A stretch of DNA of 35,093 nucleotides. It comes from Actinomycetota bacterium. Its GTDB lineage: Bacteria; Actinomycetota; CALGFH01. Each line of letters opens with the position of its first letter. Position 1 is the stretch's first letter. The notes below the pieces were generated by a model. It saw nothing but the letters and a program-made list of their open reading frames with translations, searched no databases and was not told the DNA's origin. Made by a program: the position numbers and the translations under genes. Positions 3,101-35,093 of this stretch are shown here, piece after piece. The stretch covers positions 1-35,093 of the forward strand of contig DASZON010000036.1 of assembly GCA_035550755.1 (NCBI GenBank), in the 5' to 3' direction.

Positions 3101-3493
3101 CTACGCCTCCTGCCGGTGCACCCGCTCGGGGAGGAAGACCGACATGACGTCCCGCATCGAGAGCACGCCGGCTGCCGCCCCCTGCTCCAGCACCACCAGG
3201 TGGCGGATGCGGCGGTCGTGCATCTCAGCCGCCGCGACGCCCACGTCCCAGTTGGGTGAGGCGGTCACCACCGGGGCGGTCATGTGATCGGCAACTCGAG
3301 CCTGGGCGACATCACCGAGCCGGGCGGCGGCGTGCATGACATCACGCTCGGTGAGGATGCCGGCGACCTGGCCGCCCTGCCTCACCACCACCGAGCCGAT
3401 GCCGTGCTCCTGCATGAGCTGGGCGGCGTGTTGCAGCGACTGATCGGGGTCGACCGTGACCACCGGGCTCCTCATGAGATTTCGGACCTGCAT
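3101..3493 (-). CDS. CBS-pair domain protein (stand-alone, about 130 aa)
   Basis: Two CBS repeats are visible (VRNLMRSPVVTV...GIGSVVV...GILTERDV and HMTAPVVTA...IRHLVVLE...GVLSMRDV). An AGGAGGAG SD sits in the 18-nt gap after the upstream SDR gene. Confidence 0.85.
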   Translation of the reverse strand: MQVRNLMRSPVVTVDPDQSLQHAAQLMQEHGIGSVVVRQGGQVAGILTERDVMHAAARLGDVAQARVADHMTAPVVTASPNWDVGVAAAEMHDRRIRHLVVLEQGAAAGVLSMRDVMSVFLPERVHRQEA

Positions 3494-3511
3494 GGCTGCT
3501 CCTCCTGATCG

Positions 3512-4246
3512 TCACATGTACAGTCCGCCGTTGATGTCGATGATCTCGCCGGTGATGTAGCCCGAGTCGGGGTCGGCCAGGAACTCGACCACCCGCGCAA
3601 CCTCGTCCGGCTCGCCGAGGCGACCCGCCGGAATGGTGCCGATAATCCGGTTGAGGATGTCCTCGGGGATGGCGGCGACCATCTCGGTGGCGATGAACCC
3701 CGGCGCGACCGAGTTGACGGTGATGCCCTTGCGGGCCGTCTCCAGGGCCAGGCTGTTGGTCAACCCGAACAACCCCGACTTGGCCGCCGCGTAGTTGGCC
3801 TGGCCGATGTTGCCCTTCTCCCCGATCACCGAGCTGATGTTGATGATCCGCCCGTACCCGCGGTCCAGCATGTGTTGCAGCACCGCCCGCGAAAGATAGA
3901 ACGCCCCCGACAGATTGATGCCGATGACCCGGTCCCAGTCCTCCACCGACATCTTCCTGACGGTGCGGTCGATGGTGATGCCGGCGTTGTTGACCAGGAT
4001 GTCGAGCTGGCCGTGCTCCTCCAGTACCTCGGCGATGACGCGTTGGCAGTCGGCCGCCACCCCGATGTTGCCCTGGTGAACGGTCACGCCCTCGTGGGCG
4101 GCCGCGAACGCCTTGGCGGCATCGGCCCCGCGGGAGTACCCAACGGCGACCTTGACCCCACGGTCGGCCAGGCGGCTGCTGATCGCCAGCCCGATCCCTC
4201 TGGCCCCGCCGGTGACGAGCGCAACCTGACCTTCCATGCTGGCCAT
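3512..4246 (-). CDS. short-chain dehydrogenase, acetoacetyl-CoA reductase / 3-oxoacyl-ACP reductase-like
   Basis: Classical SDR motifs are present: TGGARGIG, NNAG and YAAAK. The start is trimmed to ATG 4246 (MASMEGQVALVTGG), which follows GGAAGGAGG. The longer track ORF to 4318 has no SD. Confidence 0.85.
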   Translation of the reverse strand: MASMEGQVALVTGGARGIGLAISSRLADRGVKVAVGYSRGADAAKAFAAAHEGVTVHQGNIGVAADCQRVIAEVLEEHGQLDILVNNAGITIDRTVRKMSVEDWDRVIGINLSGAFYLSRAVLQHMLDRGYGRIINISSVIGEKGNIGQANYAAAKSGLFGLTNSLALETARKGITVNSVAPGFIATEMVAAIPEDILNRIIGTIPAGRLGEPDEVARVVEFLADPDSGYITGEIIDINGGLYM

Positions 4247-4321
4247 CGTGGCCTCCTTCCTTGCCCGGCGTGCAGGTGCACCGGCTTGGTCCAGCATCGG
4301 CCAAGGCCGTGGGTCCACCTA

Positions 4322-4358
4322 TGGCCGAAGGTCCCGTTCCGGGCGGGTCGTGCGACCC
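4322..4358. promoter_or_regulatory. box pair: 4345-4358 GGGTCGTGCGACCC and 4322-4335 (minus sense GGGACCTTCGGCCA)
   Basis: Two GGGnC-N4-GnCCC-type boxes lie 23 bp apart in the 113-nt gap between the Pat-type gene and the SDR gene. The proximal box ends 89 nt upstream of ATG 4246. The distal box sits inside the hairpin GCGGGTCGTGCGACCCGC (4343-4360), which abuts the Pat stop codon. Confidence 0.45.
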
Positions 4359-4359
4359 G

Positions 4360-7068
4360 CTACCGGCGCCGGGCAGCCAGCGGGAGTGGCAGGGTGGCGG
4401 CCTCGACCCGGACCCGGGCGTCGACCACGACCACACCGTCGGGCAGTACCTTGACCGGGTTGCAGTCCACCTCGGCGATGGCCGGGTGGGCCTCGACCAG
4501 GGCGCTGACCCGCAGCAGGAGGTCCTCGAGGGCGGCCACGTCGGCCCTGGGGGCGCCGCGGTAGCCGTCCAGCAGCGGGTAGGTGGCCAGTGAGCGGACC
4601 ATCTCGGCGGCGTCCAGGTCGGTCAGCGGGGTGATGCGGACGGCCACGTCCTTGAGGAGCTCGACCGCCGTGCCACCCGCCCCGCAGGCGATCACCGGAC
4701 CGAACGAGGCGTCATGGACGACCCCGACAAGCACCTCCACCCCCTGGCCGACCATACGCTGGACGAGGAACCCGTCCACCGTGTAGCCCTCGGCGGCGAC
4801 CGCCGCGGACATCTCGGCGGCCGCGGTCTGGACCGCCTCGGCGCTGGCCAGGCCGAGACGGACGGCACCGGCCTCGGTCTTGTGGACCAGTCGGGGCGCG
4901 ACCGCTTTGAGGGCCACTGGCCCGCCGAGCTCGTTCGCGGCCGCGGCGGCCTCCTCGGGCGAGCCGGCCAGGCGCCACTCGGCGGTGGGTATGCCGTAGC
5001 AGCCGAGCAGCCTGGCAACCTCCTCCGGCGATAACCAGCGGGGGCCCGTCCCGTCGGCCAGGGCCGCGGCCAGCAGGGCGGCGGCCTCGTCGCGGCGGGC
5101 GTCGGGCAACTCGGGCACCTGGCCCTCCGGACGCTGTCGCCATGCCCCGTATTCCACGGCACGCACCAGTGCGTGGGCGGCGTCCTCGGGAAACCGGTAG
5201 CGGGGAAGCCGGGGGCCGTCGCCATCCTCAAGCGGCGGGTCGGCCGAGGACATGACCACGTTCAGCACCGGGACCGACCTGGCCCTCGCGGTCGCATCGT
5301 GGACCGCCTGGACGACCGCGTCCGTGTCGGCGGGCAGGGGCGGGATGAAGATCGCGATGACAGCGTCGACCTCTCCGGAGGCGGCCACCAGCTCGACGGT
5401 CCGGCGGTAGTGCTCGGGCGGGGCCGAGGCCAGCATGTCGACCGGGTTGGCCACCGCCGCCTCCGGAGGCAGTTCCTCGGCCAAGCTCGCCTGGAGCCGC
5501 GGGGAGAGCTCGACGACCTCTAAGCCGCCGGCCTCGCAGGCATCCGCGCACATGATCCCCGGCCCGCCGGCATTGGTCACGATTCCCACCCGCCGTCCCG
5601 CCGGGATGGGCTGGTTGGCGAGCAGCGAGGCCACGTCGAACAGCTCGGCCAGGCTGTCGGTCCGGATCACCCCGGCCTGGTCGAAGAGCGCGTCCACGGT
5701 CACATCCGAAGCGGCCAGGAGCGCCCCGGTGTGGGAGGAGGTGGCCCTGGCGCCAGCGGCCGAGCGACCGCTCTTGACCGCGAGCACCGGCTTGGTCCTG
5801 GCCACGCGCCGGGCGATCCGGGCGAATTTGCGTGGGTTGCCGAACGACTCCAGGTACAGCAGCACGAGGTTGGTCCGTTCGTCCTGCTCCCAGAACGACA
5901 GCAGGTCGTTGCTGGAGATGTCGGCCTTGTTGCCGACCGACACGAACGACGACAGTCCCAGCCCGAGCGCGTTGGCGTAGTCGATGATGGCCAGGCCGAG
6001 GGCACCTGACTGGGACAGGAACCCAACCCGCCCGGGAAGCGGCACGATCGGGCCGAAGGTGGCGTCCAGGCGCACCTCGGCATCGGTGTTCACGATCCCC
6101 AGGCAGTTGGGCCCGATGAGGCGCATCCCGGCGGCCCGGCAGACGGCCAGCAGCTCTCGCTGGCGCTGGGCGCCCTCCGGCCCGGTCTCGGCGAAACCGG
6201 CCGAGATCACCACGATCGCCCGCACCCCCTTGGCCGCGCAGTCTCCCGCCGCCTCGACCACAGACGGGGCCGGCAGGGCCAGCACGGCCAGGTCGACCGG
6301 GCCGGGTACGTCCAGCACCGACTTGTAGGCCACGACCGACTGGACGACCGAGGCCTTGGGATTCACTGGGTACACCGGGCCGTTGAAGCCGGCCGCCAGC
6401 AGGTTGTGGAACAGCTCGCCGGAGACGGTGCCGCGCCGCCGCGAAGCGCCGATGACCGCCACCGCGCGGGGCTCGAAGAAGGCGCGCATGGCGGCGGTGG
6501 CTGCCAACTGCTCGCGCCGCTCGAACCGCTCCAGCGCCTCCGGCGACATGGAGGTTGGGAACTCGATCAGGAGATATCCCGAGAGGCTGTGGGTCCTGAC
6601 CGGGAAGCCACAGTCGCGGAAGACCTTGACCATCTGGTGGTTCTCGGCCAGCACCTCGGCATCCAGTACCTGGATGCCGAGCTGGTTGGCTGCCTCGGCG
6701 AGCTGGCCGAGCAGGATCGTCCCCAGCCCCTTGCCCTGCAACGCATCGACGATCTCCAAGGCCACCTCGGCCCGGTCCGGGTGGTCGGGCTGGCGCTCGA
6801 AGCCGGCATGGCCGACCACCCGACCGTCGGCCCCGCTCGTGGCGACCAACCCGTACCGGCGCTCGTAGTCGACCTCGGTAGCCCATTGGACGGCCTTGGT
6901 CAGGTCCGGATAGCCGGAGAAGAACCGGAGCCAACGGCTGCGGTCGGACAGCCCCTTGAGCAGCCGCTCGACCTCGGGCGCGTCGGCGGGCCTGGCCGGC
7001 CGCACGTGGACCGTCGAGCCGTCCCGCAGGACGACGTCGGCTTCCCGATGAAGGGGATAGCTGGTCAT
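4360..7068 (-). CDS. bifunctional GNAT acetyltransferase / NDP-forming acyl-CoA synthetase-like protein (PatA-type protein acetyltransferase)
   Basis: About 900 aa. An N-terminal GNAT domain (RWLRFF..., QGKGLGTILL) is followed by CoA-binding/succinyl-CoA-synthetase-like and ATP-grasp regions (VAVIGASRRRGTVSG, LIGPNCLGI, VGFLSQSGALG). The preferred start is ATG 7068, 8 nt after GAGGAG. GTG 7077 would overlap the upstream stop. Confidence 0.85.
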   Translation of the reverse strand: MTSYPLHREADVVLRDGSTVHVRPARPADAPEVERLLKGLSDRSRWLRFFSGYPDLTKAVQWATEVDYERRYGLVATSGADGRVVGHAGFERQPDHPDRAEVALEIVDALQGKGLGTILLGQLAEAANQLGIQVLDAEVLAENHQMVKVFRDCGFPVRTHSLSGYLLIEFPTSMSPEALERFERREQLAATAAMRAFFEPRAVAVIGASRRRGTVSGELFHNLLAAGFNGPVYPVNPKASVVQSVVAYKSVLDVPGPVDLAVLALPAPSVVEAAGDCAAKGVRAIVVISAGFAETGPEGAQRQRELLAVCRAAGMRLIGPNCLGIVNTDAEVRLDATFGPIVPLPGRVGFLSQSGALGLAIIDYANALGLGLSSFVSVGNKADISSNDLLSFWEQDERTNLVLLYLESFGNPRKFARIARRVARTKPVLAVKSGRSAAGARATSSHTGALLAASDVTVDALFDQAGVIRTDSLAELFDVASLLANQPIPAGRRVGIVTNAGGPGIMCADACEAGGLEVVELSPRLQASLAEELPPEAAVANPVDMLASAPPEHYRRTVELVAASGEVDAVIAIFIPPLPADTDAVVQAVHDATARARSVPVLNVVMSSADPPLEDGDGPRLPRYRFPEDAAHALVRAVEYGAWRQRPEGQVPELPDARRDEAAALLAAALADGTGPRWLSPEEVARLLGCYGIPTAEWRLAGSPEEAAAAANELGGPVALKAVAPRLVHKTEAGAVRLGLASAEAVQTAAAEMSAAVAAEGYTVDGFLVQRMVGQGVEVLVGVVHDASFGPVIACGAGGTAVELLKDVAVRITPLTDLDAAEMVRSLATYPLLDGYRGAPRADVAALEDLLLRVSALVEAHPAIAEVDCNPVKVLPDGVVVVDARVRVEAATLPLPLAARRR

Positions 7069-7073
7069 GGCGG

Positions 7074-7685
7074 TCACTCCTCGTCCAACCGGACCTCGAG
7101 GACGCCGGGCACGCCGCGAGCCAGCAGCATGGCCAGCTGGCGATCGACCGGGTCAAGGAGGCCGGTAAGGTCCACGACCCCGTCGCGGACGGTCACCCGG
7201 TAGGGGCTTGGTGAGCCCAGCTCGGCCGCCAGCAGCGCCTCCAGGTCATGGGCGATCTCCCCGTCGCTGCGGGCCAGCACCTCCAGCAGGTCCCGCCGGG
7301 CCACGATGCCGACGACCCGGCGGCCCCGGAGGACCGGGATCGACTTGATCCGGCGCTCCAGCATGAGCCGGCCAGCGTCGGCGACGTCGGCCTCCTCGGG
7401 CAGGGCGATGACATTCAGGGTCATGGCCTGGGACGCGATCCGGGGTGCCGATTGAGACGCCTCGGGGACTGGGGCGAGATGGGCCCGCGGGTCGGGGGCC
7501 AGCTCAAGTGGGACCAGATCGGCCTCGGAGAGGATCCCGACCAACTCGCCGGCGTCCACCACCGGCACGGCGCTGATGGCCCGCGTGACCAGGACCTTGG
7601 CGACCTCCTTGAGCGGCATGCCCGGTGGCACCGTCACCACCGGGCTGGACATGACCTCCCTGACCCGCACGTCGCCTCCTTGCAT
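7074..7685 (-). CDS. CBS-pair + BON-like domain protein
   Basis: Two CBS repeats (VREVMSSPVVTV...AVPVVD...GILSEADL and AMTLNVIAL...IKSIPVL...GIVARRDLL) are followed by a BON-like tail (VTVRDGVVDLTGLL...VPGVLEVRL). ATG 7685 has no SD. GTG 7670 follows an internal AAGGAGG and is the more likely start. Confidence 0.8.
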   Translation of the reverse strand: MQGGDVRVREVMSSPVVTVPPGMPLKEVAKVLVTRAISAVPVVDAGELVGILSEADLVPLELAPDPRAHLAPVPEASQSAPRIASQAMTLNVIALPEEADVADAGRLMLERRIKSIPVLRGRRVVGIVARRDLLEVLARSDGEIAHDLEALLAAELGSPSPYRVTVRDGVVDLTGLLDPVDRQLAMLLARGVPGVLEVRLDEE

Positions 7686-7726
7686 TGGTTACCGGCAGTG
7701 TGGCCCCCGGGGTCCGGGTGGTTCTA

Positions 7727-7763
7727 GGGCCAGGTGGCCCGGCCGCCGCGGGACGTTCGCCAC
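7727..7763. promoter_or_regulatory. box pair: 7727-7740 GGGCCAGGTGGCCC and 7750-7763 GGGACGTTCGCCAC
   Basis: Two boxes lie 23 bp apart in the divergent intergenic region between 7685/7670(-) and 7831(+). The proximal box starts 81 nt upstream of ATG 7831. The other box ends 70 nt from GTG 7670. Confidence 0.45.
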
Positions 7764-7830: not shown

Positions 7831-8523
7831 ATGCACAGCCTGGTGAAGGATCTGATGACGACCCCGGTGGTGACGGTGCAGCCCACCACCCCGTTCAAGG
7901 AGATCGTGACCCGCTTGGCCAAGCACGGGGTCAGTGCGGTTCCGGTCGTGGACGACAGTCGCCTCGTCCTGGGTGTCGTCTCCGAAGCCGATCTGCTCCT
8001 CAAGGAGGAGTTCCCCCAGCCCGAGCAGGACATCCCGCTGTGGTGGACCAGGCGGGCCCGGCTGGACCGGGCCAAGGCCGCCGCCGCGGTGGCCAGCGAC
8101 CTCATGACCGTGGCCGTGGTGGCCGTCTCGCCCGACGCGACGGTGGCCGAGGCGGCCCGGCGGATGCACACCGCCAAGGTCAAGCGCCTGCCCGTGGTCG
8201 ACCGCCGCGGCCGGCTGGTCGGGATCGTCAGCCGCAGCGACCTGCTGAAGGTGTTCGACCGCTCCGACGAGGACATCCGCCGCGAGATCATCGAGGACGT
8301 GATCGTCGGCGAGTTCATGATGGCCCCGAGCCGGTTCTTCCTCCACGTCAATGACGGGGTGGTGGTGCTCCAGGGCCGAGTGGAGCGGCGAAGCCTCCTG
8401 CCCTACGTGGTCCGGGCCGTCCAGAGAGTCGAAGGCGTGGTCCGGGTCGAGGACCGGCTGACCTACGACCTCGACGACTGGGACGGCGACCGGGTGATGA
8501 CCTACCCCTGGGTCCGTGTCTGA
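7831..8523 (+). CDS. CBS-pair + BON domain protein
   Basis: The start is trimmed to ATG 7831, preceded by GGAGGA. The sequence MHSLVKDLMTTPVVTV...GVSAVPVVD...GVVSEADLL, then DLMTVAVVAV...VKRLPVVD...GIVSRSDLL, then BON (VNDGVVVLQGRVERRSLLPYVVRAVQRVEGVVRVEDRL) shows the architecture. Confidence 0.85.
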   Translation: MHSLVKDLMTTPVVTVQPTTPFKEIVTRLAKHGVSAVPVVDDSRLVLGVVSEADLLLKEEFPQPEQDIPLWWTRRARLDRAKAAAAVASDLMTVAVVAVSPDATVAEAARRMHTAKVKRLPVVDRRGRLVGIVSRSDLLKVFDRSDEDIRREIIEDVIVGEFMMAPSRFFLHVNDGVVVLQGRVERRSLLPYVVRAVQRVEGVVRVEDRLTYDLDDWDGDRVMTYPWVRV

Positions 8524-9746: not shown

Positions 9747-9824
9747 AGGCGCTCCTTTGTCTGTCCGGCCGCGGGCGGGTGCGCCCACCGGGATCAGTCT
9801 GGGTGGCCGTCGGCGCCTTCGCAC

Positions 9825-9862
9825 GGGGCGACCGGCCCCCGCAGGACCTGGCCGTTCGGCCC
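9825..9862. promoter_or_regulatory. box pair: 9825-9838 GGGGCGACCGGCCC and 9849-9862 TGGCCGTTCGGCCC
   Basis: Two boxes lie 24 bp apart in the divergent region between 9746(-) and 9939(+). The proximal box starts 90 nt upstream of ATG 9939. The minus-sense string TAGGGCCGAACGG is shared with the 14580 box. Confidence 0.45.
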
Positions 9863-9938
9863 TACCGGAGGCCCGGCTTGACGGCGATCCTGAGGGTGCC
9901 CGGCCGGCGGCCGGGACGACGGGAGCGAGGAGGTTCCC

Positions 9939-10661: not shown

Positions 10662-10690
10662 CCGCTCCAGCGACGCGAACAGATCGCGAG

Positions 10691-11131
10691 GTGATCACCG
10701 TGCCCCAGGCAGTCCATTGTCATGATGCGCCGAACCGCTTGCAGACGGTGCCAGCGTTTCCGGGCAAGTACCTCAGCCTCACCAGCTTCCGGCGCGACGG
10801 CACCGGGGTGGCCACTCCCGTCTGGTTCGTCGAGGTCGGCGGGCGGCTGCTGGTCGAGACCGACGCCGGCTCCTACAAGGTGCGCCGCATCCGCCGCGAC
10901 CCACGGGTGACCATCGCCACCTGCACCGCCACCGGCCGCCGCCGCGGCATCCCCGTGCCGGCGTGGGCCGAGTTGCTGCCCGACGCCGAGGTGGCCCGCG
11001 TGGAGCGGCTGATGGCCCGCAAGTACCGGGTCGACCTGCTGTTCATCAAGCCATTCCGTGCCCTGCAGCGTGTCCTGCGCCGGAATCGGCCTCGCGGGAC
11101 TCCTGTCATCCTGGAGCTCACGCCGTCGTGA
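10691..11131 (+). CDS. pyridoxamine 5'-phosphate oxidase (PPOX)-family, probable F420/FMN-binding split-barrel protein
   Basis: This is the C-terminal part of a long artefactual ORF. KYLSLTSFRRDGTGVATPVWFV...LLVETDAGSYKVRRIRRDPRVTIA matches the PPOX-class pattern. The start is uncertain, either GTG 10691 or GTG 10700. Confidence 0.65.
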   Translation: MITVPQAVHCHDAPNRLQTVPAFPGKYLSLTSFRRDGTGVATPVWFVEVGGRLLVETDAGSYKVRRIRRDPRVTIATCTATGRRRGIPVPAWAELLPDAEVARVERLMARKYRVDLLFIKPFRALQRVLRRNRPRGTPVILELTPS

Positions 11132-16390: not shown

Positions 16391-18473
<2,083 letters not shown>

Positions 18474-26644: not shown

Positions 26645-26647
26645 ACC

Positions 26648-27558
<911 letters not shown>

Positions 27559-27562
<4 letters not shown>

Positions 27563-29190: not shown

Positions 29191-29706
29191 TCACCCGAGG
29201 CGAGCTGCGCCGGCACGATCCCGCGGCGATGCTGGGCAGGCGTGGTCCGCGCGGGCATGCCGGGCCAGGGCAGCGACCAGGTCACCGGTGGCGATGGTCC
29301 CCACCGGATGGCCGTGACCGTCCACCACTGGCAGCACGTCCAGGTGCTGTTCGTCCATCAGCCGCGCCGCCTCGACCAGCGGCTGGTCGGCCGCCACCAC
29401 GAGCGGGCTGGCGCGCATCAGCTGCCACACCCGCAGGCTGGCGAGCAGCCGCTGATGACGCAGGGATGGCCCGGGGAGCTGGGGCAGCGGCCGGCCGGGC
29501 AGGGACCGGGCGAGCACGTCCCCCAGCGTGACCACGCCGACCATCCGTCCACGGTGCAGCACCGCCGCCCCGGCCACGCCCCGGGCCAGCTGGCGGGCGG
29601 CCACATCGGCGGGTGTGTCGGCGTCCAACACCAGCACCGGGGTGGTCATGGCGTCGCCGACCGTGCCCAGCAGGTGGTCCGAATCAGGATGGTGGTCGGT
29701 GAGCAT
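29191..29706 (-). CDS. CBS-pair domain protein (stand-alone)
   Basis: The start is trimmed to ATG 29706, after GAAGGAGG. Two CBS repeats are present (VGDAMTTPVLVL...GAAVLH...GVVTLGDVL and VWQLMRASPLVV...LDVLPVVD...GTIATGDLV). Confidence 0.8.
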   Translation of the reverse strand: MLTDHHPDSDHLLGTVGDAMTTPVLVLDADTPADVAARQLARGVAGAAVLHRGRMVGVVTLGDVLARSLPGRPLPQLPGPSLRHQRLLASLRVWQLMRASPLVVAADQPLVEAARLMDEQHLDVLPVVDGHGHPVGTIATGDLVAALARHARADHACPASPRDRAGAARLG

Positions 29707-29785
29707 GACGATCAACCTCCTTCGTCCCGACCAGCCTCCCAGCTTCCCGGCCCCGGCGCCGCCGCCGATCGGCACCCTTTCTCCA

Positions 29786-29799
29786 GGACCTTCGTTCCC
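29786..29799. promoter_or_regulatory. single weaker box (minus sense GGGAACGAAGGTCC)
   Basis: The box ends 93 nt upstream of ATG 29706. The partner position 23 bp away (29809-29822, GGGCGAGCAGGGTC) is only a half match. Confidence 0.25.
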
Positions 29800-30073
29800 T
29801 CGGCAGGTGGGCGAGCAGGGTCGAGCCAGAATCACCCCAGGTTGGTCCAGGTCATCCCGACGCGGATCCCCGCAGATCAGGCTGATCCTGGCCGCTGCGA
29901 CCGCATCGGTCGCGGCGGTGGCATCGGTGGCCGGCTCCAGCGGCTGGGGTCGGAAGGGTGGCCGCCCGCGGTCACGCGCCCGGTTGTCGGCCGGCCGACA
30001 TGAGCGAGCACCAGCAGCCGCACCCCAGCCGCCTCGGCGACATGCACCACGCTGGCCACCGCCTCCGGCCGGA

Positions 30074-30110
30074 GGGACCTTCGGGTATGGGATTCCGGGA
30101 CGCTTGCCTC
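30074..30110. promoter_or_regulatory. box pair: 30074-30087 GGGACCTTCGGGTA and 30097-30110 GGGACGCTTGCCTC
   Basis: The boxes are 23 bp apart. The proximal box starts 89 nt upstream of the Hsp20 ATG 30186. The left half-sites are perfect and the right half-sites are degenerate. Confidence 0.4.
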
Positions 30111-30185: not shown

Positions 30186-30628
30186 ATGGCGCTGGTCCGT
30201 CGACACCCGTTGACGGTCGCCGAGTGTGACCCTTGGGCGGCTGGATCCGGGACTGGCCGGAGCTGTTCCGGTCGTTCCGGTCGCTGCTGGCTGAGGACCA
30301 GCTCGGGGTCGAGGAGTTCCTCCACGGCGACACGCTCATCATCCGCGCCGAGCTGCCCGGGATCGACCCGGACACCGACGTCGAGCTGACCATCGGCGAT
30401 GGCATGCTCCACCTCCACGCCGAGCGGCGCCAGGAGCAGCAGCTCGAGGACAAGGACCTGGTTCGCTGTGAGCTGCGCTAGGGTGCGTTCACGCGCACCC
30501 TGCCGCTGCCGGTCGGGGCGACCGAGGAGGACATCGACGCCTCCTCCAAGGCGGGGATCCTGGAGGTCCGCGTCCCGGTCGACACCAAGAAGGCGGCCGC
30601 GACCAAGCTCTCGGTCCGCACCACCTGA
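30186..30628 (+). pseudogene. Hsp20/alpha-crystallin small heat-shock gene, disrupted (frameshift + in-frame TAG)
   Basis: A strong GGAGGAGG SD precedes ATG 30186, which gives MALVRRHPLTV... The alpha-crystallin domain (DWPELFRSF...LIIRAELPGIDPDTDVELTIGDGMLHLHAERR) is in another frame. TAG 30479-30481 sits where the family has Tyr (ELR*GAFTRTLPLPVGATEEDIDASSKAGILEVRVPV). The reading frame continues to TGA 30626-30628. Confidence 0.7.
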
Positions 30629-30647
30629 CGGGCGCACGCCTGTTCCG

Positions 30648-30681
30648 GCCCCGGCCCCGGCCACGCTGCCGGGGCCGGGGC
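30648..30681 (+). terminator. GC-rich hairpin downstream of Hsp20
   Basis: There is a perfect 13-bp stem, GCCCCGGCCCCGG (30648-30660) paired with CCGGGGCCGGGGC (30669-30681), and an 8-nt loop. It begins 20 nt after the stop. No U-tract follows, which is common in high-GC actinobacteria. Confidence 0.5.
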
Positions 30682-30687
30682 GTGCGG

Positions 30688-30724
30688 CGGCCGTGCGGCC
30701 CAGACAAGCCGAGGCGTTCGCCTC
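30688..30724. promoter_or_regulatory. box pair: 30688-30701 CGGCCGTGCGGCCC and 30711-30724 GAGGCGTTCGCCTC
   Basis: The boxes are 23 bp apart. The proximal box starts 90 nt upstream of ATG 30801. The proximal box shares the CGTTCGCC core with 7750-7763. Confidence 0.4.
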
Positions 30725-30800
30725 TCGGCGGTGGCTGGCGAACCGGGGAGGATGAGGATCCGAACGCCATCCCCTAGGCGCCGCCGGAGGAGTGAGTGGC

Positions 30801-32180
30801 ATGGGGTTCCGAGATCGCGCCGACGCGGGCCGCCAGCTGGCCTGGCGACTCCAGCAGTACCGGACAGAGGTGCCGGTGGTGGTGGGCCTGCCCCGTGGCG
30901 GGGTGCCGGTCGCGGCCGAGGTGGCCCGTGCGCTGGGGGCGCCGCTGGATGTCGTGGTCGTCCGTAAGCTGGGCTGCCCCTGGCAGCCCGAGCTGGCCCT
31001 GGGCGCCGTCGGCGAGGACGGCGCCCTGGTCCTCAACCCCGCCCTGATCGCCGGCATCGGCCTGGCCCCCCAGGACCTCGCCGGCGTCGTCTGGGCCGAA
31101 CGCGGCGAGCTGGCCCGGCGCCTGGCCCACTACCGCGGGAACCGGCCGGCGGTGCCGGTCGCGGGCCGCACCGTCATCGTGGTCGACGACGGGCTGGCGA
31201 CCGGCGCCACCGCCCGCGCCGCGATCGGGGTCCTCCGCCAGCGGGGGGCTCGGCGCATCGTGCTGGCGGTACCGGTGGCGCCCCCCGAGACGGTCGAGGC
31301 GCTGGGTGCCGTCGCCGACGAGGTGGTCGCCCTGGACACCCCGAGGGCGTTCCTGGCCATCGGCCAGCGCTATGACGACTTCACCCAGACCAGCGACCAG
31401 GAGGTCACCCGGCTGCTGGGGGCCCGGGAGCCGGCACCGGCCCTGGCCAGCACCGGAACCCAAGATGCTCCCGCCCGCGAGTGCGGCATCGACCTCGGCC
31501 GGGTGCGGCTGGCCGGCGAGCTGGTCACCCCGCGCTCCCCGATCGGGATCGTGGTGTTCGCCCACGGCAGCGGCAGCAGCCGCCACAGCCCCCGCAACCG
31601 CCAGGTCGCCCACGTCCTCAACCACAGCCGGCTGGCCACCCTGCTGGTGGACCTGCTCACCCCGGCCGAGGCGAGGGACCGCGGCAACGTCTTCGACATC
31701 GAGCTGCTCGCCCGGCGGCTGGTCGGCACGACCCGCTGGCTCCAGGCCCAGCCCGAGGCCGGCGGCCTCCCGGTCGGGTTCTTTGGGGCCAGCACCGGCG
31801 CCGCGGCCGCCCTGTGGGCCACCGCCGACCTCGGCGACCAGATCCGGGCGGTGGTGTCCCGCGGCGGCCGTCCCGACCTGGCCGCCCCCAGGCTTGGCGA
31901 GGTGCGAGCCCCGACCCTGCTGGTCGTGGGGGGCCGCGACCCCCAGGTGCTGGAGCTCAACCGCCAGGCCCAGGCCCAGCTGCGCGGTCCGACCACCCTC
32001 CAGGTCATCGCCGGGGCCGGCCACCTGTTCGAGGAACCCGGCGCCCTGGACCGGGTGGCCGCCCTGGCCGCCGCCTGGTTCCGCCACCACCTCCCCCACC
32101 CCAGCCCCGCCCGGCCCGAACAGGCACTCCGGCATCCATCCGAGCCGAGCAGCCGGCCCCTCGCCATGCTCCAAGGGTGA
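30801..32180 (+). CDS. phosphoribosyltransferase domain fused to dienelactone-hydrolase-like alpha/beta hydrolase
   Basis: A GGAGGAG SD precedes ATG 30801. The N-terminal PRTase has FRDRADAGRQLA, VVGLPRGGVPVA and the PRPP loop VIVVDDGLATGAT. The C-terminal hydrolase has VVFAHGSGSSRHSPRN, the nucleophile elbow GASTGAAAAL and GAGHLFEEPG. Confidence 0.85.
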   Translation: MGFRDRADAGRQLAWRLQQYRTEVPVVVGLPRGGVPVAAEVARALGAPLDVVVVRKLGCPWQPELALGAVGEDGALVLNPALIAGIGLAPQDLAGVVWAERGELARRLAHYRGNRPAVPVAGRTVIVVDDGLATGATARAAIGVLRQRGARRIVLAVPVAPPETVEALGAVADEVVALDTPRAFLAIGQRYDDFTQTSDQEVTRLLGAREPAPALASTGTQDAPARECGIDLGRVRLAGELVTPRSPIGIVVFAHGSGSSRHSPRNRQVAHVLNHSRLATLLVDLLTPAEARDRGNVFDIELLARRLVGTTRWLQAQPEAGGLPVGFFGASTGAAAALWATADLGDQIRAVVSRGGRPDLAAPRLGEVRAPTLLVVGGRDPQVLELNRQAQAQLRGPTTLQVIAGAGHLFEEPGALDRVAALAAAWFRHHLPHPSPARPEQALRHPSEPSSRPLAMLQG

Positions 32181-32272
32181 TCGCCGGAGCCGACCAGCTG
32201 TTGCCTGTCGTCTCTGACCGGGTCAGCTTCCGGCTGGGGAAGTCCAAGGACCGGCCGGCTGGTCTGGTTGGT

Positions 32273-33412
32273 TCAGTAGCGGAGGATGGCTGCCGGTCGG
32301 GCCTCGTGCGCCGGGAGGGGGTAGGCGCTGCCGCCGTGGCGGAGGGTCTCGACCGCGGCCAGATCCAGCAGGTCGACAGCTCCCGGGCGGACGCGCCGAT
32401 GGAGCTGGGCCGCGCCGGTCGCCGGGTCCACACTGCCCCAACGCTCGGTGCCCATGGGGACCAGCAGCGACTCGACCCGGCCGCCGAGGGCCGCCGCCAC
32501 GATCCGGCGCAGGTCGCTGGTGGCCCGGCCGCGCCGCTCCAGGGCCCGGCAGCGCCCAGCGACCGCCCGCTGGTCGCTTCGGAACCGGTCAGCGACCAAG
32601 GCCCAGGCCCGCCGGTGCAGCTCGCGGGCGCCGAGGTGGTCGGGGTTGCCCGACAGGCCCCCCTCCAGGATCTCGGGATAGGCGCTGGCGGCCCGGTACA
32701 GCGGCCGCAGGTAGTCCACCCCGGCCAGCACCAACGGCGCCCGCCGGTCGCTGACCGCATGCTGGAGCCCATGGTCGACCTCGCGGAACAAGCGCAGGAC
32801 GCGGTCCTTGGCGTCGTCGGTCCCCACCCCGTGGCCATGGAAGACCACCGCCGGCCGACCCCCGGGCCGCGCCGGGCCACTCTGGTGCAGCTGGAGCTGC
32901 TCGGCGCGGTCCTCCAGGCGCATCGTCTCGTCCAGGCCGGCCAGGACCTCGGGCAGCTCAAGCTCGCGGAGGCCGTCCCGGTCGCCGGCGAACAGCCGCA
33001 CCCGGTGCTGGCTGAGGGCGAGCAGGTAGAACCGGCCGTCGCCACCCAGCAGGGGCAGCAGCGGCTTGACATGAAAGCGGTCGCCGACCACCACCAGCTG
33101 GCGTGGTCGGTAGGGCAGCCGTAGCCGCCGGGCGCCGCCGCCGGCCAGGAACAACGCCAGGCCACCAGCGGCCGCGTCCCGCCAGAAGGCCGCGTCGGCG
33201 GTCAGCTCCAGGCCGGGGGCGAGCAGGTCCCTGGCCTGGGAATGGCGCACGCCGCCAGCCAGCCGGTGCTCGGCCTCGCGGAGCAGGTTCCGCAGCCGGA
33301 TCGGGTCCTGCTCGGTGTCGCCCGGTGGATGGGTTGGCAGGAAGATCGACACACGCCGGCCGCCACGCTCATCGGCGAGTGCGACCAGCCCCTGGGTGGT
33401 GAGCAGCCGCAT
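32273..33412 (-). CDS. eRF1/Pelota-like (bacterial archaeo-eukaryotic release-factor-like) family protein
   Basis: The start is trimmed to ATG 33412, 7 nt after AAGGGAGG. The 379-aa protein opens with VSIFLPTHPPGDTEQDPIRLRNLLREAE, which I recognise as typical of this family (the family of M. tuberculosis Rv2629). The assignment is from memory only. Confidence 0.55.
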   Translation of the reverse strand: MRLLTTQGLVALADERGGRRVSIFLPTHPPGDTEQDPIRLRNLLREAEHRLAGGVRHSQARDLLAPGLELTADAAFWRDAAAGGLALFLAGGGARRLRLPYRPRQLVVVGDRFHVKPLLPLLGGDGRFYLLALSQHRVRLFAGDRDGLRELELPEVLAGLDETMRLEDRAEQLQLHQSGPARPGGRPAVVFHGHGVGTDDAKDRVLRLFREVDHGLQHAVSDRRAPLVLAGVDYLRPLYRAASAYPEILEGGLSGNPDHLGARELHRRAWALVADRFRSDQRAVAGRCRALERRGRATSDLRRIVAAALGGRVESLLVPMGTERWGSVDPATGAAQLHRRVRPGAVDLLDLAAVETLRHGGSAYPLPAHEARPAAILRY

Positions 33413-33431
33413 CGAAAGTACCTCCCTTGTC

Positions 33432-33452
33432 GCACCCGAGGAGCGCGGGTGC
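33432..33452 (-). other. intercistronic hairpin between the dehydrogenase and eRF1-like genes
   Basis: GCACCCG (33432-33438) and CGGGTGC (33446-33452) form a perfect 7-bp stem with a 7-nt loop. The hairpin lies in the 55-nt gap, just 5' of the eRF1-like SD on the minus-strand transcript. Confidence 0.35.
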
Positions 33453-33467
33453 ACCGGCACGCCTGGT

Positions 33468-34577
33468 TCAGGCGCGGCGGCGGTAGCTGGTGGCCTCGGT
33501 GACCCGGGCCCGGGCCAGGTCCTCAGCCGCCTCCCGGGGCGTGACCCCTCGCTCTGCCGCGTCGGCCAGCACCTGGGCGGTGTTGGCCGCGACCTTGTCC
33601 TGGACCAGGGCCAGCGCCTGGGCCTGGGTCCCGCCCCGGTACTCGACACTGGCGCAGATCACCCCGCCGGCGTTGGCGATGATGTCGGGCACCACCAGCA
33701 CCCCACGCTTGTGCAACAACAACTCGGCCTCGGCGGTGGCCGGGATGTTGGCCCCCTCCAGCACCACCGCGGCCCGCACCCGCTCGGCGGTGGCGGCATC
33801 CAGCACATCGGGCCGGGCGGCCGGGACCAGCAGGTCGCAGTCCACCCCCAGCAGGTCGTCGCGGGGCATCGGCGAGCCACCCTCGAATGCCCCCACCGAG
33901 CCGCCCTCGGCCTTCCAGGCGCCCAGCGCGGCCACCTCCAGGCCCTCGGGGTTGGCCACCGCCCCAGCCGAGTCCGAGGCCGCCACCAGCACCGCCCCCC
34001 GCTCGGCCAGGAACCGGGCGGCGTTGGCGCCCACCGCCCCGAACCCCTGCACCGCCACCCGGGCACCCTCCAGGCGGAGATAACCGGCCTCCTGGACCAC
34101 GTCGGCGCAGGCGGCCAGGCCCAGGCCGGTCGCACCGACCTCGTCCAGGGGGATCCCGCCCAGCACCGCCGGCAGGCCGACCGCCCGGCCGATCTCGTCA
34201 TGGATCCAGCCCATACAGGCCTCGTCGGTGCCCATGTCCGGACCCGGGACGTACTCGGCCAGACCGGCGATCGCCCGCGCGAACGACCGCACCAGCCGCT
34301 GCTTGGCAGCCCGGCCCATCCCCGGGTCGGCGCAAATGCCGGCCTTGCCGCCCCCATAGGGCAGCCCAGCGGCGGCATTCTTCAACGTCATCGCCCGAGC
34401 CAGCCGCATGACCTCCTCAACGGTGACGTCAGCGGCCATCCGGACCCCCCCGATGGCCAGCCCGGCAGCCAGATTGTCGACCACCACCACCGCCCGCAAC
34501 CCAACAGCGGGATCCCCGACCAGCACAACCTTCACCGGACCCAGGTCGCCCCACAACTCACCCCATCGACCCTCCAT
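33468..34577 (-). CDS. Glu/Leu/Phe/Val dehydrogenase family protein (short, about 369 aa)
   Basis: A GAGGAGG SD is present, with ATG 34577 (or GTG 34580) as start. The catalytic-Lys region LPYGGGKAG and the NAD(P) fold VAVQGFGAVGANAARFL are present. The length fits the short Leu/Val/Glu dehydrogenase group. Confidence 0.85.
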   Translation of the reverse strand: MEGRWGELWGDLGPVKVVLVGDPAVGLRAVVVVDNLAAGLAIGGVRMAADVTVEEVMRLARAMTLKNAAAGLPYGGGKAGICADPGMGRAAKQRLVRSFARAIAGLAEYVPGPDMGTDEACMGWIHDEIGRAVGLPAVLGGIPLDEVGATGLGLAACADVVQEAGYLRLEGARVAVQGFGAVGANAARFLAERGAVLVAASDSAGAVANPEGLEVAALGAWKAEGGSVGAFEGGSPMPRDDLLGVDCDLLVPAARPDVLDAATAERVRAAVVLEGANIPATAEAELLLHKRGVLVVPDIIANAGGVICASVEYRGGTQAQALALVQDKVAANTAQVLADAAERGVTPREAAEDLARARVTEATSYRRRA

Positions 34578-34680
34578 CACCGGAACCTCCTCTCAGGCCC
34601 GGCACCGACGTCACCATGGCCCACCGGGCCACCGGACCTCGGTGCATCCTCAACCTAGCCCGTGACCGGCCTCCGGGGCA

Positions 34681-34694
34681 GAGGCGAAGGTCCC
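34681..34694. promoter_or_regulatory. single box GAGGCGAAGGTCCC (minus sense GGGACCTTCGCCTC)
   Basis: The box lies about 104-117 nt upstream of the dehydrogenase start. It shares the 10-mer GGGACCTTCG with the boxes at 30074 and 4335(-). Confidence 0.3.
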
Positions 34695-34804
34695 GCTCCC
34701 GCCGTGCCGACTCACGGCCCGCGGATGGGCCCACGCCCTTCACCGCTCGTGAGCCTGCTCGACGGTGAGCGGTGGGAGCGGCCCTCGCGCCACCCGGGAA
34801 CCGA

Positions 34805-34841
34805 GGGCTGACCGGCACGGGTCGGGTGTGACCATCGGCCC
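34805..34841. promoter_or_regulatory. box pair: 34805-34818 GGGCTGACCGGCAC and 34828-34841 GTGACCATCGGCCC
   Basis: The boxes are 23 bp apart. The proximal box starts 73 nt upstream of ATG 34901. The distal box resembles 9825-9838 (GGGGCGACCGGCCC). The proximal box shares minus-sense TAGGGCCGA with 9863 and 14580. Confidence 0.45.
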
Positions 34842-34900
34842 TACGGCGCGGGCTCGGGAGGCGATCTGATAGGCGTGGAGATGGATCGAAGGAGGATCCG

Positions 34901-35093
34901 ATGCGCAGCCTGGTGAGGGACCTGATGACGACCCCGGTGGTGACCGTCGAGTCCACCACGCCGTTCAAGGAGATCGTGGCCCGGCTCACCCAGCACAAGG
35001 TGAGCGCGGTGCCGGTGGTGGACGACGCCGGGCTGGTGCTCGGTGTCATCTCCGAGGCCGACCTGCTCCTCAAAGAGGAGCACCCCGACCCCG
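34901..35093 (+). CDS. CBS-pair (+BON expected) protein, 5' partial, close paralog of 7831..8523
   Basis: A GAAGGAGGA SD precedes ATG 34901. MRSLVRDLMTTPVVTVESTTPFKEIVARLTQHKVSAVPVVDDAGLVLGVISEADLLLKEEHPDP runs off the window end. It is absent from the ORF track because no stop codon lies in the window. Confidence 0.8.
   Translation, partial: MRSLVRDLMTTPVVTVESTTPFKEIVARLTQHKVSAVPVVDDAGLVLGVISEADLLLKEEHPDP

What the first reader, a model, noticed from the sequence alone, without database searches (positions are those of the whole stretch)
3101..35093. Gene content parallels the mycobacterial DosR dormancy regulon, concentrated in one 35-kb island
Several genes downstream of the boxes are counterparts of well-known M. 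tuberculosis DosR-regulon members.
- Stand-alone CBS-pair proteins (3101, 11236, 29191) correspond to hrp1/Rv2626c.
- The alpha-crystallin Hsp20 corresponds to hspX/Rv2031c. Its N-terminus MALVRRHP resembles the hspX ...VQRHP... opening as I recall it.
- The P2-type cation ATPase corresponds to ctpF/Rv1997.
- The phosphoribosyltransferase-hydrolase fusion corresponds to Rv0571c.
- The eRF1-like protein corresponds to Rv2629.
- The USP corresponds to the multiple USPs of that regulon.
What seems new here is the tight clustering. Also new are the members added to the set: an A/V-type ATPase operon, an expanded CBS-BON family, a PatA-type acetyltransferase, a C2H2 mini-protein and a Glu/Leu/Phe/Val dehydrogenase.
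Basis: partly seen in the sequence, partly recalled or inferred. Interest (0 to 1): 0.7.

Follow-up and report, generated by a model that had tools for sequence, protein, structure and literature searches.

The report
DosR/OsdR-type dormancy island with V-ATPase
This stretch from an uncultured soil actinomycete is a cluster of stress and dormancy genes that carry binding sites of the kind used by the tuberculosis dormancy regulator DosR; such clusters are already known, but an extra ion-pumping ATPase operon tied to them in many relatives looks undescribed.

Summary
The gene list is essentially right by Pfam. Three corrections apply.
- The HspX-like gene is broken: an in-frame TAG sits in every population copy, and 'MALVRRHP' is out of frame at a rearrangement breakpoint.
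- The eRF1-like protein is a full-length Balon-family member (profile E 1e-33). It shows no detectable match to Rv2629.
- The CBS pairs are only generic relatives of Hrp1 (25-35% identity).

The DosR reading is supported mainly by DNA. The motif CGAASGTCCC occurs 5 times against 0.19 expected, always intergenic. The full sites (AGGGCCGAACGTCCCG) match the published OsdR consensus of Streptomyces coelicolor and the boxes upstream of dosR orthologs in soil contigs. Sites lie 43-140 bp upstream of about 12 transcription units.

No DosR or DosS gene lies in the window or the recovered flanks. One relative has DosS- and DosR-like genes beside the same V-ATPase/CBS-BON module.

Tight clustering is not new: SCO0167-SCO0219 is the precedent.

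The better lead is the A/V-ATPase operon.
- In 80 actinomycete loci the gene after subunit D is a USP in 24 of 77.
- OsdR-type boxes precede the operon in 15 of 40 loci, against 7% of background windows (p = 6.5e-8).

Caveat: 30207-34590 is a 4.4-kb repeat with alternative flanks, so contiguity is secure only for about 30 kb.

The parts
1..141 (+). 3' end of a 231-aa CBS-BON gene that heads the operon with the next two genes
   Evidence: Full gene seen in L012-L014.
152..3064 (+). GCS2-like carboxylate-amine ligase (152-1645) and pyridine-nucleotide-disulphide oxidoreductase (1664-3064)
   Evidence: Pfam. A GCS2 homolog 62-64% identical lies next to DosR orthologs in 3 soil contigs.
3101..4246 (-). 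SDR (3512-4246) followed by a stand-alone CBS pair (3101-3475), one operon
   Evidence: Pfam. Box centred 83 bp upstream of the SDR start.
4321..4336 (.). OsdR/DosR-type box ATGGCCGAAGGTCCCG
4360..7685 (-). CBS-BON (7074-7685) followed by a GNAT + ADP-forming acyl-CoA synthetase fusion (4360-7068, Pat-like, GNAT at the N-terminus)
   Evidence: Pfam. NCBIfam acetate--CoA ligase alpha domain 497 bits and Pat GNAT 85 bits. An SHTGAL motif is present at residue ~446.
7722..7763 (.). Two boxes in the divergent CBS-BON / CBS-BON promoter region
7831..8523 (+). CBS-BON paralog
   Evidence: Pfam. Paralogs are 33-57% identical to each other.
8574..9719 (-). FAD-dependent oxidoreductase (DAO family)
   Evidence: Pfam.
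9824..9863 (.). Two boxes (CGGGGCGACCGGCCCC, CTGGCCGTTCGGCCCT) between the DAO gene and CBS-BON
9972..11131 (+). CBS-BON (9972-10661) and a PNPOx-like flavoprotein (10691-11131)
   Evidence: Pfam. A PNPOx gene, SCO0214, is a predicted OsdR target.
11236..11628 (-). Stand-alone CBS pair
   Evidence: Pfam. Rv2626c E 1.4e-9, but not the best PDB hit.
11719..11734 (.). Box GGTGCCGGTCGGCCCG, 99 bp upstream of the CBS gene and inside the 3' end of the ATPase gene
11576..14545 (-). P2-type cation-transporting ATPase (989 aa)
   Evidence: Pfam Cation_ATPase_N/E1-E2/Cation_ATPase_C. NCBIfam gives the best scores to IIC/IIA subfamilies, all below cut-off.
14580..14595 (.). Strongest box AGGGCCGAACGTCCCG, shared by the P-type ATPase and the TusA/V-ATPase operon
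   Evidence: PWM 17.4..
14672..23230 (+). TusA-like gene, the A/V-type ATPase operon (152 aa, 301 aa C/d-like, I, K/c, F, 177 aa E-like, A, B, D), then a USP (22793-23230)
   Evidence: Pfam. Operon conserved in 80 actinomycete loci. USP follows subunit D in 24 of 77 loci.
23285..24129 (-). C2H2 zinc-finger mini-protein (23956-24129) followed by CBS-BON (23285-23932)
   Evidence: Pfam.
24195..24210 (.). Box AGGGCCGACAGGCCCG, 74 bp upstream of the zinc-finger gene
   Evidence: PWM 13.4..
26089..29169 (.). MarR regulator and ABC-2 exporter (ATPase plus permease); no box found, probably an unrelated insert
   Evidence: Pfam. No motif hit in 26583-26648.
29191..29715 (-). CBS pair with an N-terminal extension (174 aa)
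   Evidence: Pfam. PDB search.
29783..30087 (.). Two boxes (29783-29798 and 30072-30087) in the divergent CBS / hspX promoter region
30186..30209 (+). Start (strong RBS, MALVRRHP) of a former hspX-like gene, cut off at breakpoint 30207 and out of frame with what follows
   Evidence: Intact relatives start M..RRE.R..PELFDWL.
30207..34590 (.). 4.4-kb cassette found with alternative left and right flanks (assembly repeat or duplication)
30233..30629 (+). HspX-like alpha-crystallin gene interrupted by TAG at 30479-30481
30801..32180 (+). Phosphoribosyltransferase + alpha/beta-hydrolase fusion (459 aa)
   Evidence: Pfam. At least 8000 homologs at E<=1e-20 (the scoring cap); among the 120 listed, many carry DLH or Hydrolase_4 domains.
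32273..34577 (-). Glu/Leu/Phe/Val dehydrogenase (33468-34577) followed by a Balon-family baeRF protein (32273-33412), one operon
   Evidence: Pfam. Balon 8rd8_B profile E 1.1e-33. No GGQ or NIKS motif.
34680..34842 (.). Three boxes between the dehydrogenase gene and the divergent CBS-BON gene
34901..35093 (+). 5' part of a 230-aa CBS-BON gene
   Evidence: Pfam. Full gene in L184.

Best explanation
The window is a chromosomal stress/dormancy island of an uncultured high-GC actinomycete. Its nearest genomes are Streptosporangiaceae and Actinoallomurus, at only 70-74% identity for V-ATPase subunit A.

Most of its transcription units are proposed to be driven by a DosR/DevR-OsdR-type response regulator. 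This NarL/LuxR-family regulator would be paired with a GAF-GAF histidine kinase and would bind 16-bp palindromes of the form aGGGmC-GAAs-GkCCCt, centred 43-140 bp upstream of the start codons.

On loss of oxygen or redox stress the regulator would switch on these groups of genes:
- adenine-nucleotide-sensing CBS and CBS-BON proteins;
- a USP;
- a Balon-type ribosome hibernation factor, co-transcribed with an amino-acid dehydrogenase;
- a P2-type cation pump;
- a GNAT/ADP-forming acyl-CoA synthetase, giving protein acetylation and possibly substrate-level ATP formation;
- an auxiliary A/V-type ATPase, which I infer hydrolyses ATP to keep up the ion-motive force when respiration stops.

Shown here: the gene families, the boxes with their placement and enrichment, and the recurrence of the modules next to V-ATPase operons and next to dosR orthologs in other actinomycetes.

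Inferred: who binds the boxes in this organism, induction by hypoxia, and the direction in which the ATPase works.
For: Boxes in the window:
- CGAASGTCCC occurs 5 times exactly against 0.19 expected; 0 of 100 shuffles reach 5.
- All 5 copies lie in the 10.2% of the window that is intergenic (P about 1e-5).
- The full sites match the published OsdR consensus AGGGCCGATCGGCCCT and listed sites such as AGGGACCTTCGGCCCC.
- A PWM built only from the published S. coelicolor sites scores 17.4 at 14580 and 13.4 at 24195.
- In the 74 soil contigs with enough upstream sequence, 26 dosR orthologs have a box scoring >=9 on the S. coelicolor-derived matrix, mostly centred between -90 and -170. Examples are CGGGACCTTCGTCCCT and GGGGCCGAAGGTCCCG.

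Gene families and their linkage:
- Pfam assignments.
- The reconstructed Hsp20 is 44% identical to verified HspX.
- In L056 a GAF-GAF-HisKA_3 kinase and a regulator 61% identical to verified DosR lie next to V-ATPase A-B-D and a CBS-BON gene.
- Around the 80 dosR-ortholog loci, CBS-BON occurs in 6, the Pat-like fusion in 5, HspX-like Hsp20 in 4 and GCS2 in 3.

V-ATPase operons in relatives:
- A USP lies directly downstream in 24 of 77 loci. CBS proteins (7), P-type ATPases and Rv2632c-like proteins also occur there.
- An OsdR-PWM hit lies in -300..-20 in 15 of 40 loci, against 201 of 2829 background windows (odds ratio 7.8, p = 6.5e-8).
Against: - No DosR or DosS gene lies in the window or in the flanks that could be recovered. 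The organism's genome is not available, so the regulator is inferred.
- The strict M. tuberculosis core GGGACNNNNGTCCC is not enriched: 2 hits with <=1 mismatch against 5.8 expected.
- The S. coelicolor PWM gives only modest overall enrichment: 6 hits >=10 against 2.1 expected.
- Several hallmark DosR-regulon families are absent from the window: Acg-type nitroreductases, nitrate reductase/NarK2, Tgs1 and tandem USPs.
- The MarR/ABC block and 24.2-26.1 kb carry no box.
- 25 of 40 related V-ATPase operons have no box above threshold.
- There are no expression data.
Confidence: 0.65

Rival explanations
1. The palindromes belong to a different regulator, either another NarL/LuxR-family protein or an unrelated dimeric factor. 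The island would then answer another signal, such as acid, osmotic or energy stress, and its resemblance to the DosR regulon would reflect a generic set of stress families.
For: No regulator is present in the window. The families involved (USP, CBS, Hsp20, P-type ATPase) are common stress genes. The Balon paper finds Balon genes in many kinds of stress operon. V-type ATPases have been linked to acid tolerance in archaea, according to papers surfaced.
Against: The half-sites, the spacing and even the centre (CTTC/GAAG) equal those of the boxes in front of dosR orthologs themselves and of EMSA-supported OsdR sites. DosS/DosR-like genes lie inside the equivalent island in L056.
Confidence: 0.15
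2. The genes are true orthologs of the named M. tuberculosis genes (hrp1, hspX, ctpF, Rv0571c, Rv2629), inherited as one ancestral regulon.
For: The reconstructed Hsp20 is closer to HspX (E 2e-26, 44% identity) than to any small heat-shock protein in the PDB. Architectures and lengths fit for the PRTase fusion and the P2-ATPase.
Against: The CBS pairs are only 25-35% identical to Hrp1 and score better against archaeal proteins. The baeRF protein does not find Rv2629 or Msmeg1130, either alone or as a profile, while it finds Balon at 1e-33. The hspX-like gene is inactivated.
Confidence: 0.1
3. The apparent 35-kb island is partly an assembly product. Two or more separate loci that share a 4.4-kb repeat were joined, so the concentration of genes is overstated.
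For: The segment 30207-34590 has two left and two right contexts in three combinations. Contigs L002-L004 end 98-126 nt inside it.
Against: Independent contigs of 30.3-30.7 kb cover 1-30207. Both alternative contexts are of the same kind (CBS-BON genes, M50-CBS peptidase, boxes), so the clustering survives whichever join is real.
Confidence: 0.3

Closest known systems
OsdR/OsdK (SCO0204/SCO0203) core regulon cluster SCO0167-SCO0219 of Streptomyces coelicolor (PMC5069765)
   Same: A 16-bp palindrome of the AGGGCCGATCGGCCCT type lies upstream of many neighbouring operons. The cluster is rich in USPs and includes a PNPOx gene. The genes are concentrated in one chromosomal region.
   Different: No regulator/kinase pair or nitrate reductase lies in the window. 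The window is dominated by CBS and CBS-BON genes, an A/V-ATPase operon, a Balon-type protein and a Pat-like fusion. The words CBS and ATPase do not occur in that paper's main text. The centre of the box is usually GAAs rather than GATC/GGTC.
DosR/DevR dormancy regulon of Mycobacterium tuberculosis
   Same: A box with GGGAC/GTCCC half-sites at the same spacing. Family overlap: HspX-like sHSP, USP, P2-type ATPase (CtpF), PRTase (Rv0571c), CBS pair (Hrp1), an aeRF1-like hibernation factor (Rv2629), and an M50-CBS peptidase in the alternative flank (Rv2625c-like by my recollection of that gene's architecture, not compared here).
   Different: The relation is at family level, not orthology, for the CBS pairs and the baeRF protein. 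The hspX-like gene is broken. There are no nitroreductases, NarK2/NarX, Tgs1 or tandem USPs. M. tuberculosis has no A/V-type ATPase (my own knowledge).
Balon ribosome hibernation factor (Psychrobacter urativorans, PDB 8RD8; PMC10901736)
   Same: Full-length homology (profile E 1.1e-33). GGQ and NIKS motifs absent. Located in a stress operon near an Hsp20 gene, as that paper describes for Balon genes.
   Different: Below the NCBIfam equivalog cut-off (114 against 330 bits). Co-transcribed with a Glu/Leu/Phe/Val dehydrogenase. Ribosome binding not shown.
Bacterial A/V-type ATPases (Thermus thermophilus, Enterococcus hirae)
   Same: Subunits I, K(c), F, A, B and D are recognised by Pfam, with weak matches for C/d and E. 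The operon is compact.
   Different: It presumably supplements an F-type ATP synthase, which I assume the organism has but which was not seen here. It is linked to a USP and preceded by a DosR-type box. In this organism it is headed by a TusA-like gene.
Streptomyces lividans PatA-type protein acetyltransferase (my own knowledge, not checked here)
   Same: GNAT domain at the N-terminus, followed by an NDP-forming acyl-CoA-synthetase-like body.
   Different: An SHTGAL motif is present that, from memory, matches the phosphohistidine loop of ADP-forming acyl-CoA synthetases. It may therefore be an active synthetase as well as, or instead of, a regulator.

Membership tests
DosR/DevR-OsdR regulon island | Palindromic Dev/OsdR boxes upstream of the member operons | tested here: met
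   5 exact core matches against 0.19 expected, all intergenic. Sites lie -43 to -140 from about 12 start codons. They match the published OsdR sites and the boxes in front of dosR orthologs.
DosR/DevR-OsdR regulon island | A DosR-type response regulator and a GAF-GAF sensor kinase in the genome | not testable with these tools
   Absent from the window and the recovered flanks. The genome of the organism is not available. Both genes are present next to the same module in relative L056.
DosR/DevR-OsdR regulon island | Induction by hypoxia, NO or redox stress, dependent on the regulator | not testable with these tools
   No expression data.
DosR/DevR-OsdR regulon island | Gene families shared with the experimentally defined regulons | tested here: met
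   HspX-like, USP, CBS pair, P2-ATPase, PRTase, aeRF1-like and PNPOx families are present. Nitroreductase, nitrate reductase and Tgs1 are absent.
HspX/Acr alpha-crystallin | Alpha-crystallin domain related to HspX | tested here: met
   44% identity over 95 aa, E 2e-26, to sequence-verified HspX.
HspX/Acr alpha-crystallin | Intact reading frame | tested here: not met
   TAG at 30479-30481 replaces the Tyr of RYG in every copy. The MALVRRHP start is out of frame.
Hrp1 (Rv2626c) | Stand-alone CBS pair specifically related to Hrp1 | tested here: inconclusive
   The architecture is met. Identity is 25-35%, with E 1e-9 to 3e-5, and archaeal CBS proteins score higher.
Rv2629 subfamily of Balon homologues | Detectable sequence relation to Rv2629 or Msmeg1130 (PDB 8V9J-L) | tested here: not met
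   No hit at E<=10 with the protein or with a 39-sequence profile. This assumes those entries are in the 2026 PDB copy.
Balon family | Full-length homology to Balon, with GGQ and NIKS absent | tested here: met
   8rd8_B at E 1.1e-33 over positions 6-384. NCBIfam hibernation-factor model 114 bits, below cut-off. Motifs absent.
CtpF (Rv1997) | P2-type ATPase architecture; orthology to CtpF | tested here: inconclusive
   The architecture is met and PEGL is present. The best NCBIfam scores go to IIC/IIA subfamilies, below cut-off.
Rv0571c | Phosphoribosyltransferase fused to an alpha/beta hydrolase; orthology | tested here: inconclusive
   PRTase 64 bits. Hydrolase_4 only 21 bits in this protein, but DLH or Hydrolase_4 domains appear in many homologs. 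Rv0571c is named a phosphoribosyl transferase in PMC7753917. No direct alignment was made.
A/V-type ATPase | Subunits A, B, D, I, c and F in one operon | tested here: met
   Pfam. Subunits C/d and E match only weakly, E 0.018 and 0.008.
Pat-type acetyltransferase (GNAT + NDP-forming acyl-CoA synthetase) | Both domains in one polypeptide | tested here: met
   Pfam. NCBIfam. Activity was not tested.

The most novel reading that the evidence does not exclude
In many environmental actinomycetes the DosR/OsdR system would control a conserved bioenergetic module: an auxiliary A/V-type ATPase with its own USP, often flanked by CBS-BON proteins. This module would keep the membrane energised with fermentatively made ATP during anoxic dormancy. 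That would offer a concrete, testable answer to how obligately aerobic actinomycetes survive without respiration.
Probability: 0.3. Interest if true: 0.65.

Novelty: new variant of a known kind. Interest (0 to 1): 0.45.

Why it matters
DosR-type dormancy control has been studied almost only in mycobacteria and in one Streptomyces species. This island suggests what the regulon looks like in uncultured soil actinomycetes. The same boxes are present, but the cargo differs:
- energy-sensing CBS and CBS-BON proteins;
- a Balon-type ribosome hibernation factor;
- a Pat-like acetyltransferase/synthetase;
- a second, A/V-type ATPase.

The ATPase-USP module recurs with the box in several genera that can be cultured. 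A straightforward experiment, hypoxia RNA-seq plus deletion of osdR or of the ATPase, could therefore test whether ATP-driven ion pumping is part of actinomycete dormancy.

The island itself is a further example of a known arrangement, so the gain is incremental unless the ATPase link is confirmed.

Tried and rejected
- The strict M. tuberculosis core GGGACNNNNGTCCC gave 2 hits with <=1 mismatch against 5.8 expected. It is not the right description of the site here.
- The loose pattern GGGMCSWWSGKCCC with 2 mismatches is only weakly enriched, 35 against 22.5.
- PDB searches meant to link the USP and the baeRF protein to M. tuberculosis proteins found no Mtb USP at 1e-5 and no Rv2629.
- The large-database searches with the PRTase fusion and the baeRF protein listed only metagenomic relatives among the best 120. 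They gave no direct comparison with H37Rv.
- The NCBIfam scan gave no equivalog-level name for any island protein.
- Literature searches for V-type ATPase with DosR, OsdR, Streptomyces or hypoxia, and for CBS with BON and USP, found nothing relevant. This limits the novelty claim to the held library.
- The metagenome scan with a DosR ortholog did not return contigs from the samples that hold this organism.
- I considered a mobile element: there is no tRNA, no Rfam family, and no integrase or transposase domain.
- I first read the Hsp20 defect as a simple frameshift. Comparison with L007 showed it is a breakpoint at 30207, with a DUF1918 stop codon just upstream of the real Hsp20 start.


Full report
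**Source and gene map**

The window is high-GC DNA: 68-79% G+C in 2-kb windows, highest over 14-24 kb. I called genes by third-position GC. The coordinates were then corrected to the gene lengths that JGI called on identical contigs.

The sequence is a metagenome contig. The same proteins occur on contigs from more than twenty JGI samples. No species-level relative exists among the GTDB representatives. V-ATPase subunit A is at most 74% identical, to Streptosporangiaceae MAGs, Actinoallomurus and Microtetraspora.

**The observation**

- three stand-alone CBS pairs;
- four complete CBS-BON genes, plus one cut at each end of the window;
- a 989-aa P2-type ATPase;
- a phosphoribosyltransferase with a weak hydrolase tail;
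- a baeRF (eRF1-like) protein;
- a single-domain USP;
- a nine-gene A/V-ATPase operon headed by a TusA-like gene;
- a GNAT plus ADP-forming acyl-CoA-synthetase fusion;
- a 57-aa C2H2 protein;
- a Glu/Leu/Phe/Val dehydrogenase.

**The Hsp20 gene**

This is the main error of observation.
- The alpha-crystallin frame runs 30233-30629 and contains TAG at 30479-30481. Small heat-shock proteins have the Tyr of RYG at exactly that position.
- 'MALVRRHP' starts at 30186 in a different frame.
- With the TAG read as Tyr, the protein is 44% identical over 95 residues to HspX. I had recalled the HspX sequence and verified it by exact look-up. The family assignment is therefore right, but the gene is dead or truncated.
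- The TAG is present in all population copies examined.

**A repeated 4.4-kb cassette**

Comparison of contigs shows that position 30207 is a breakpoint. In L007, L010, L181 and L185 the sequence to the left is M50-CBS peptidase, a 295-aa gene and a DUF1918 gene. The DUF1918 stop codon (TGA at 30227-30229) lies just before the TTG start of hsp20.

The window keeps only the last seven codons of DUF1918. These are joined to the promoter, ribosome-binding site and first eight codons of what was probably another hspX-like gene. Intact relatives begin M..RRE.R..PELFDWL.

A second breakpoint lies at 34590. To its right there is either the window's boxed intergenic region with a divergent CBS-BON gene (also in L184), or a CBS-BON gene 18 nt upstream of the dehydrogenase, followed by an acyl-CoA synthetase and a 2-oxoacid dehydrogenase complex.

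Three of the four flank combinations are seen. Contigs L002-L004 stop 98-126 nt inside the segment. The segment is therefore a repeat in the assembly graph, and only 1-30207 is securely contiguous.

**The boxes**

The finding refers to 'the boxes'.
- The strict M. tuberculosis core is not enriched.
- CGAASGTCCC occurs five times exactly against 0.19 expected. All five copies lie in intergenic DNA, which makes up 10.2% of the window.
- Extended, the sites read aGGGCCGAAsGTCCCg. This matches the 16-bp OsdR consensus AGGGCCGATCGGCCCT and listed sites such as AGGGACCTTCGGCCCC in S. coelicolor (PMC5069765).
- A matrix built only from those published sites gives 17.4 bits at 14580 and 13.4 at 24195.
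- Thirteen sites lie 43-140 bp upstream of about twelve transcription units. These include both arms of four divergent promoter regions.
- As an independent control, I fetched 80 soil contigs around orthologs of a DosR-like regulator. 74 had enough upstream sequence. In 26 of those the best site in the 250 bp upstream scores >=9, mostly centred between -90 and -170. Examples are CGGGACCTTCGTCCCT, AGGGACCTTGGTCCTT and GGGGCCGAAGGTCCCG, the same variant as in the window.

**The regulator**

Neither the window nor the flanks I could reach encode a DosR-like regulator.

In the related MAG contig L056, V-ATPase A-B-D is followed by these genes:
- a CBS-BON gene;
- a GAF-GAF-HisKA_3-HATPase kinase, the DosS/OsdK architecture;
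- a USP;
- a regulator 61% identical to DosR, whose sequence I verified against PDB 3C3W.

**Correspondence with the Rv genes**

- The CBS pairs are 25-35% identical to verified Hrp1, and archaeal CBS proteins score higher.
- The baeRF protein finds Psychrobacter Balon (8RD8) at 7e-10 alone and 1.1e-33 as a profile, over its full length. It lacks GGQ and NIKS, as described for Balon.
- It does not find the Rv2629 or Msmeg1130 chains deposited as 8V9J-L, even at E<=10. It is therefore a Balon-family protein of a different branch from Rv2629.
- The P-type ATPase and the PRTase fusion fit CtpF and Rv0571c by architecture only.

**Is the clustering new?**

No. PMC5069765 states that the predicted OsdR core regulon revolves around SCO0167-SCO0219. 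It reports predicted sites controlling 20 of the 22 genes between SCO0198 and SCO0219.

**Are the added members real?**

I tested this comparatively.

Among 80 actinomycete loci that hold the V-ATPase operon, the operon structure is conserved. The loci come from Streptosporangium, Actinoallomurus, Nonomuraea, Streptomyces, Nocardioides, Marmoricola, some Mycobacterium MAGs and others.
- The gene directly after subunit D is a USP in 24 of 77 loci and a CBS protein in 7 (6 with a BON domain). P-type ATPases and Rv2632c-like proteins also occur there.
- Upstream neighbours are more mixed.
- An OsdR-matrix hit >=7 lies within -300..-20 of the first operon gene in 15 of 40 loci, against 201 of 2829 background windows (odds ratio 7.8, p = 6.5e-8).

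In the reciprocal test, the 80 dosR-centred contigs hold CBS-BON genes in 6, the Pat-like fusion in 5, HspX-like genes in 4 and a GCS2 homolog in 3, but no V-ATPase. Only 28 of those contigs are 9 kb or longer.

I found no paper in the held library that links V-type ATPases, or CBS-BON proteins, with DosR or OsdR.

**Mechanism**

Shown: the families, the boxes, and the recurrence of the modules.

Inferred:
- A DosR/OsdR ortholog activates these promoters when oxygen or redox state falls.
- The CBS and CBS-BON proteins sense adenine nucleotides.
- The Balon-like protein parks ribosomes.
- The dehydrogenase, the neighbouring 2-oxoacid dehydrogenase genes and the GNAT/synthetase fusion could yield ATP by substrate-level phosphorylation. 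The fusion contains an SHTGAL motif that, from memory, matches the phosphohistidine loop of ADP-forming acyl-CoA synthetases.
- The A/V-ATPase spends that ATP to hold the ion gradient.

The direction of the ATPase is a guess. A low-gradient ATP synthase role is the alternative.

**Verdict**

It is overstated in its one-to-one parallels, wrong on the novelty of clustering, and it missed the broken hspX and the assembly repeat. The recurring boxed A/V-ATPase-USP module is the part worth following.

Noticed in passing
window 30207-34590; L007, L010, L011, L177-L185: The 4.4-kb cassette (hsp20*-PRTase-Balon-like-dehydrogenase) is found at 99.8-100% identity with two left and two right flanks, in three combinations. 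Contigs break about 100-126 nt inside it. It is either a recent duplication in one genome or a mixture of strains.
   Followed up: partly
window 30479-30481: The nonsense codon in the HspX-like gene is fixed in every copy and context. It therefore predates the duplication. An 82-aa truncated product is still called as a gene by JGI.
   Followed up: yes
window 14000-24000: The V-ATPase operon region has 76-79% G+C and an AT skew down to -0.33, against 70-73% G+C elsewhere in the window. This could mean separate acquisition or just Ala/Arg-rich subunits.
   Followed up: no
window 14672-14980: A TusA-like sulfur-carrier gene heads the V-ATPase operon here. No homolog was found near the operon in any of the 80 related loci.
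   Followed up: partly
window 3101-3475 and 29191-29715: The best or near-best PDB matches of these CBS pairs are chains named only 'CBS domain-containing protein' or 'signal-transduction protein with CBS domains' (9zni, 9znf, 9e6q). Their numeric chain labels suggest very large assemblies. What those complexes are was not checked.
   Followed up: no
window 4360-7068: The Pat-like fusion contains an SHTGAL motif at residue ~446 that, from memory, resembles the phosphohistidine loop of ADP-forming acyl-CoA synthetases. It may be catalytically active rather than only a regulatory scaffold.
   Followed up: partly
left end of window; L012-L014: Upstream of the left CBS-BON gene the contigs diverge: an amino-acid permease in L012/L013 and PhoU in L014. 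Several contigs of about 30.3-30.7 kb appear to begin near window position 1, inferred from their lengths and end points. This would be another variation or repeat boundary.
   Followed up: no
window 24200-26089: This stretch is poorly coding, with 105-aa and 121-aa ORFs that match no family. Some samples have an extra 75-aa gene here (L003, L005). No box is present.
   Followed up: no
P0182 (ENA, 632 aa): One database protein joins the baeRF domains to a Glu/Leu/Phe/Val dehydrogenase domain. This suggests that the dehydrogenase-Balon adjacency is conserved, or fused, in a relative.
   Followed up: no
L133, L134, L150: A GCS2-like ligase 62-64% identical to the window's first full gene lies next to DosR orthologs in three soil contigs. 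This extends the regulon candidates leftwards beyond the finding's start at 3101.
   Followed up: partly
L061, L075, L089: Environmental Mycobacterium MAGs also carry this A/V-ATPase operon (66-67% identity for subunit A).
   Followed up: no
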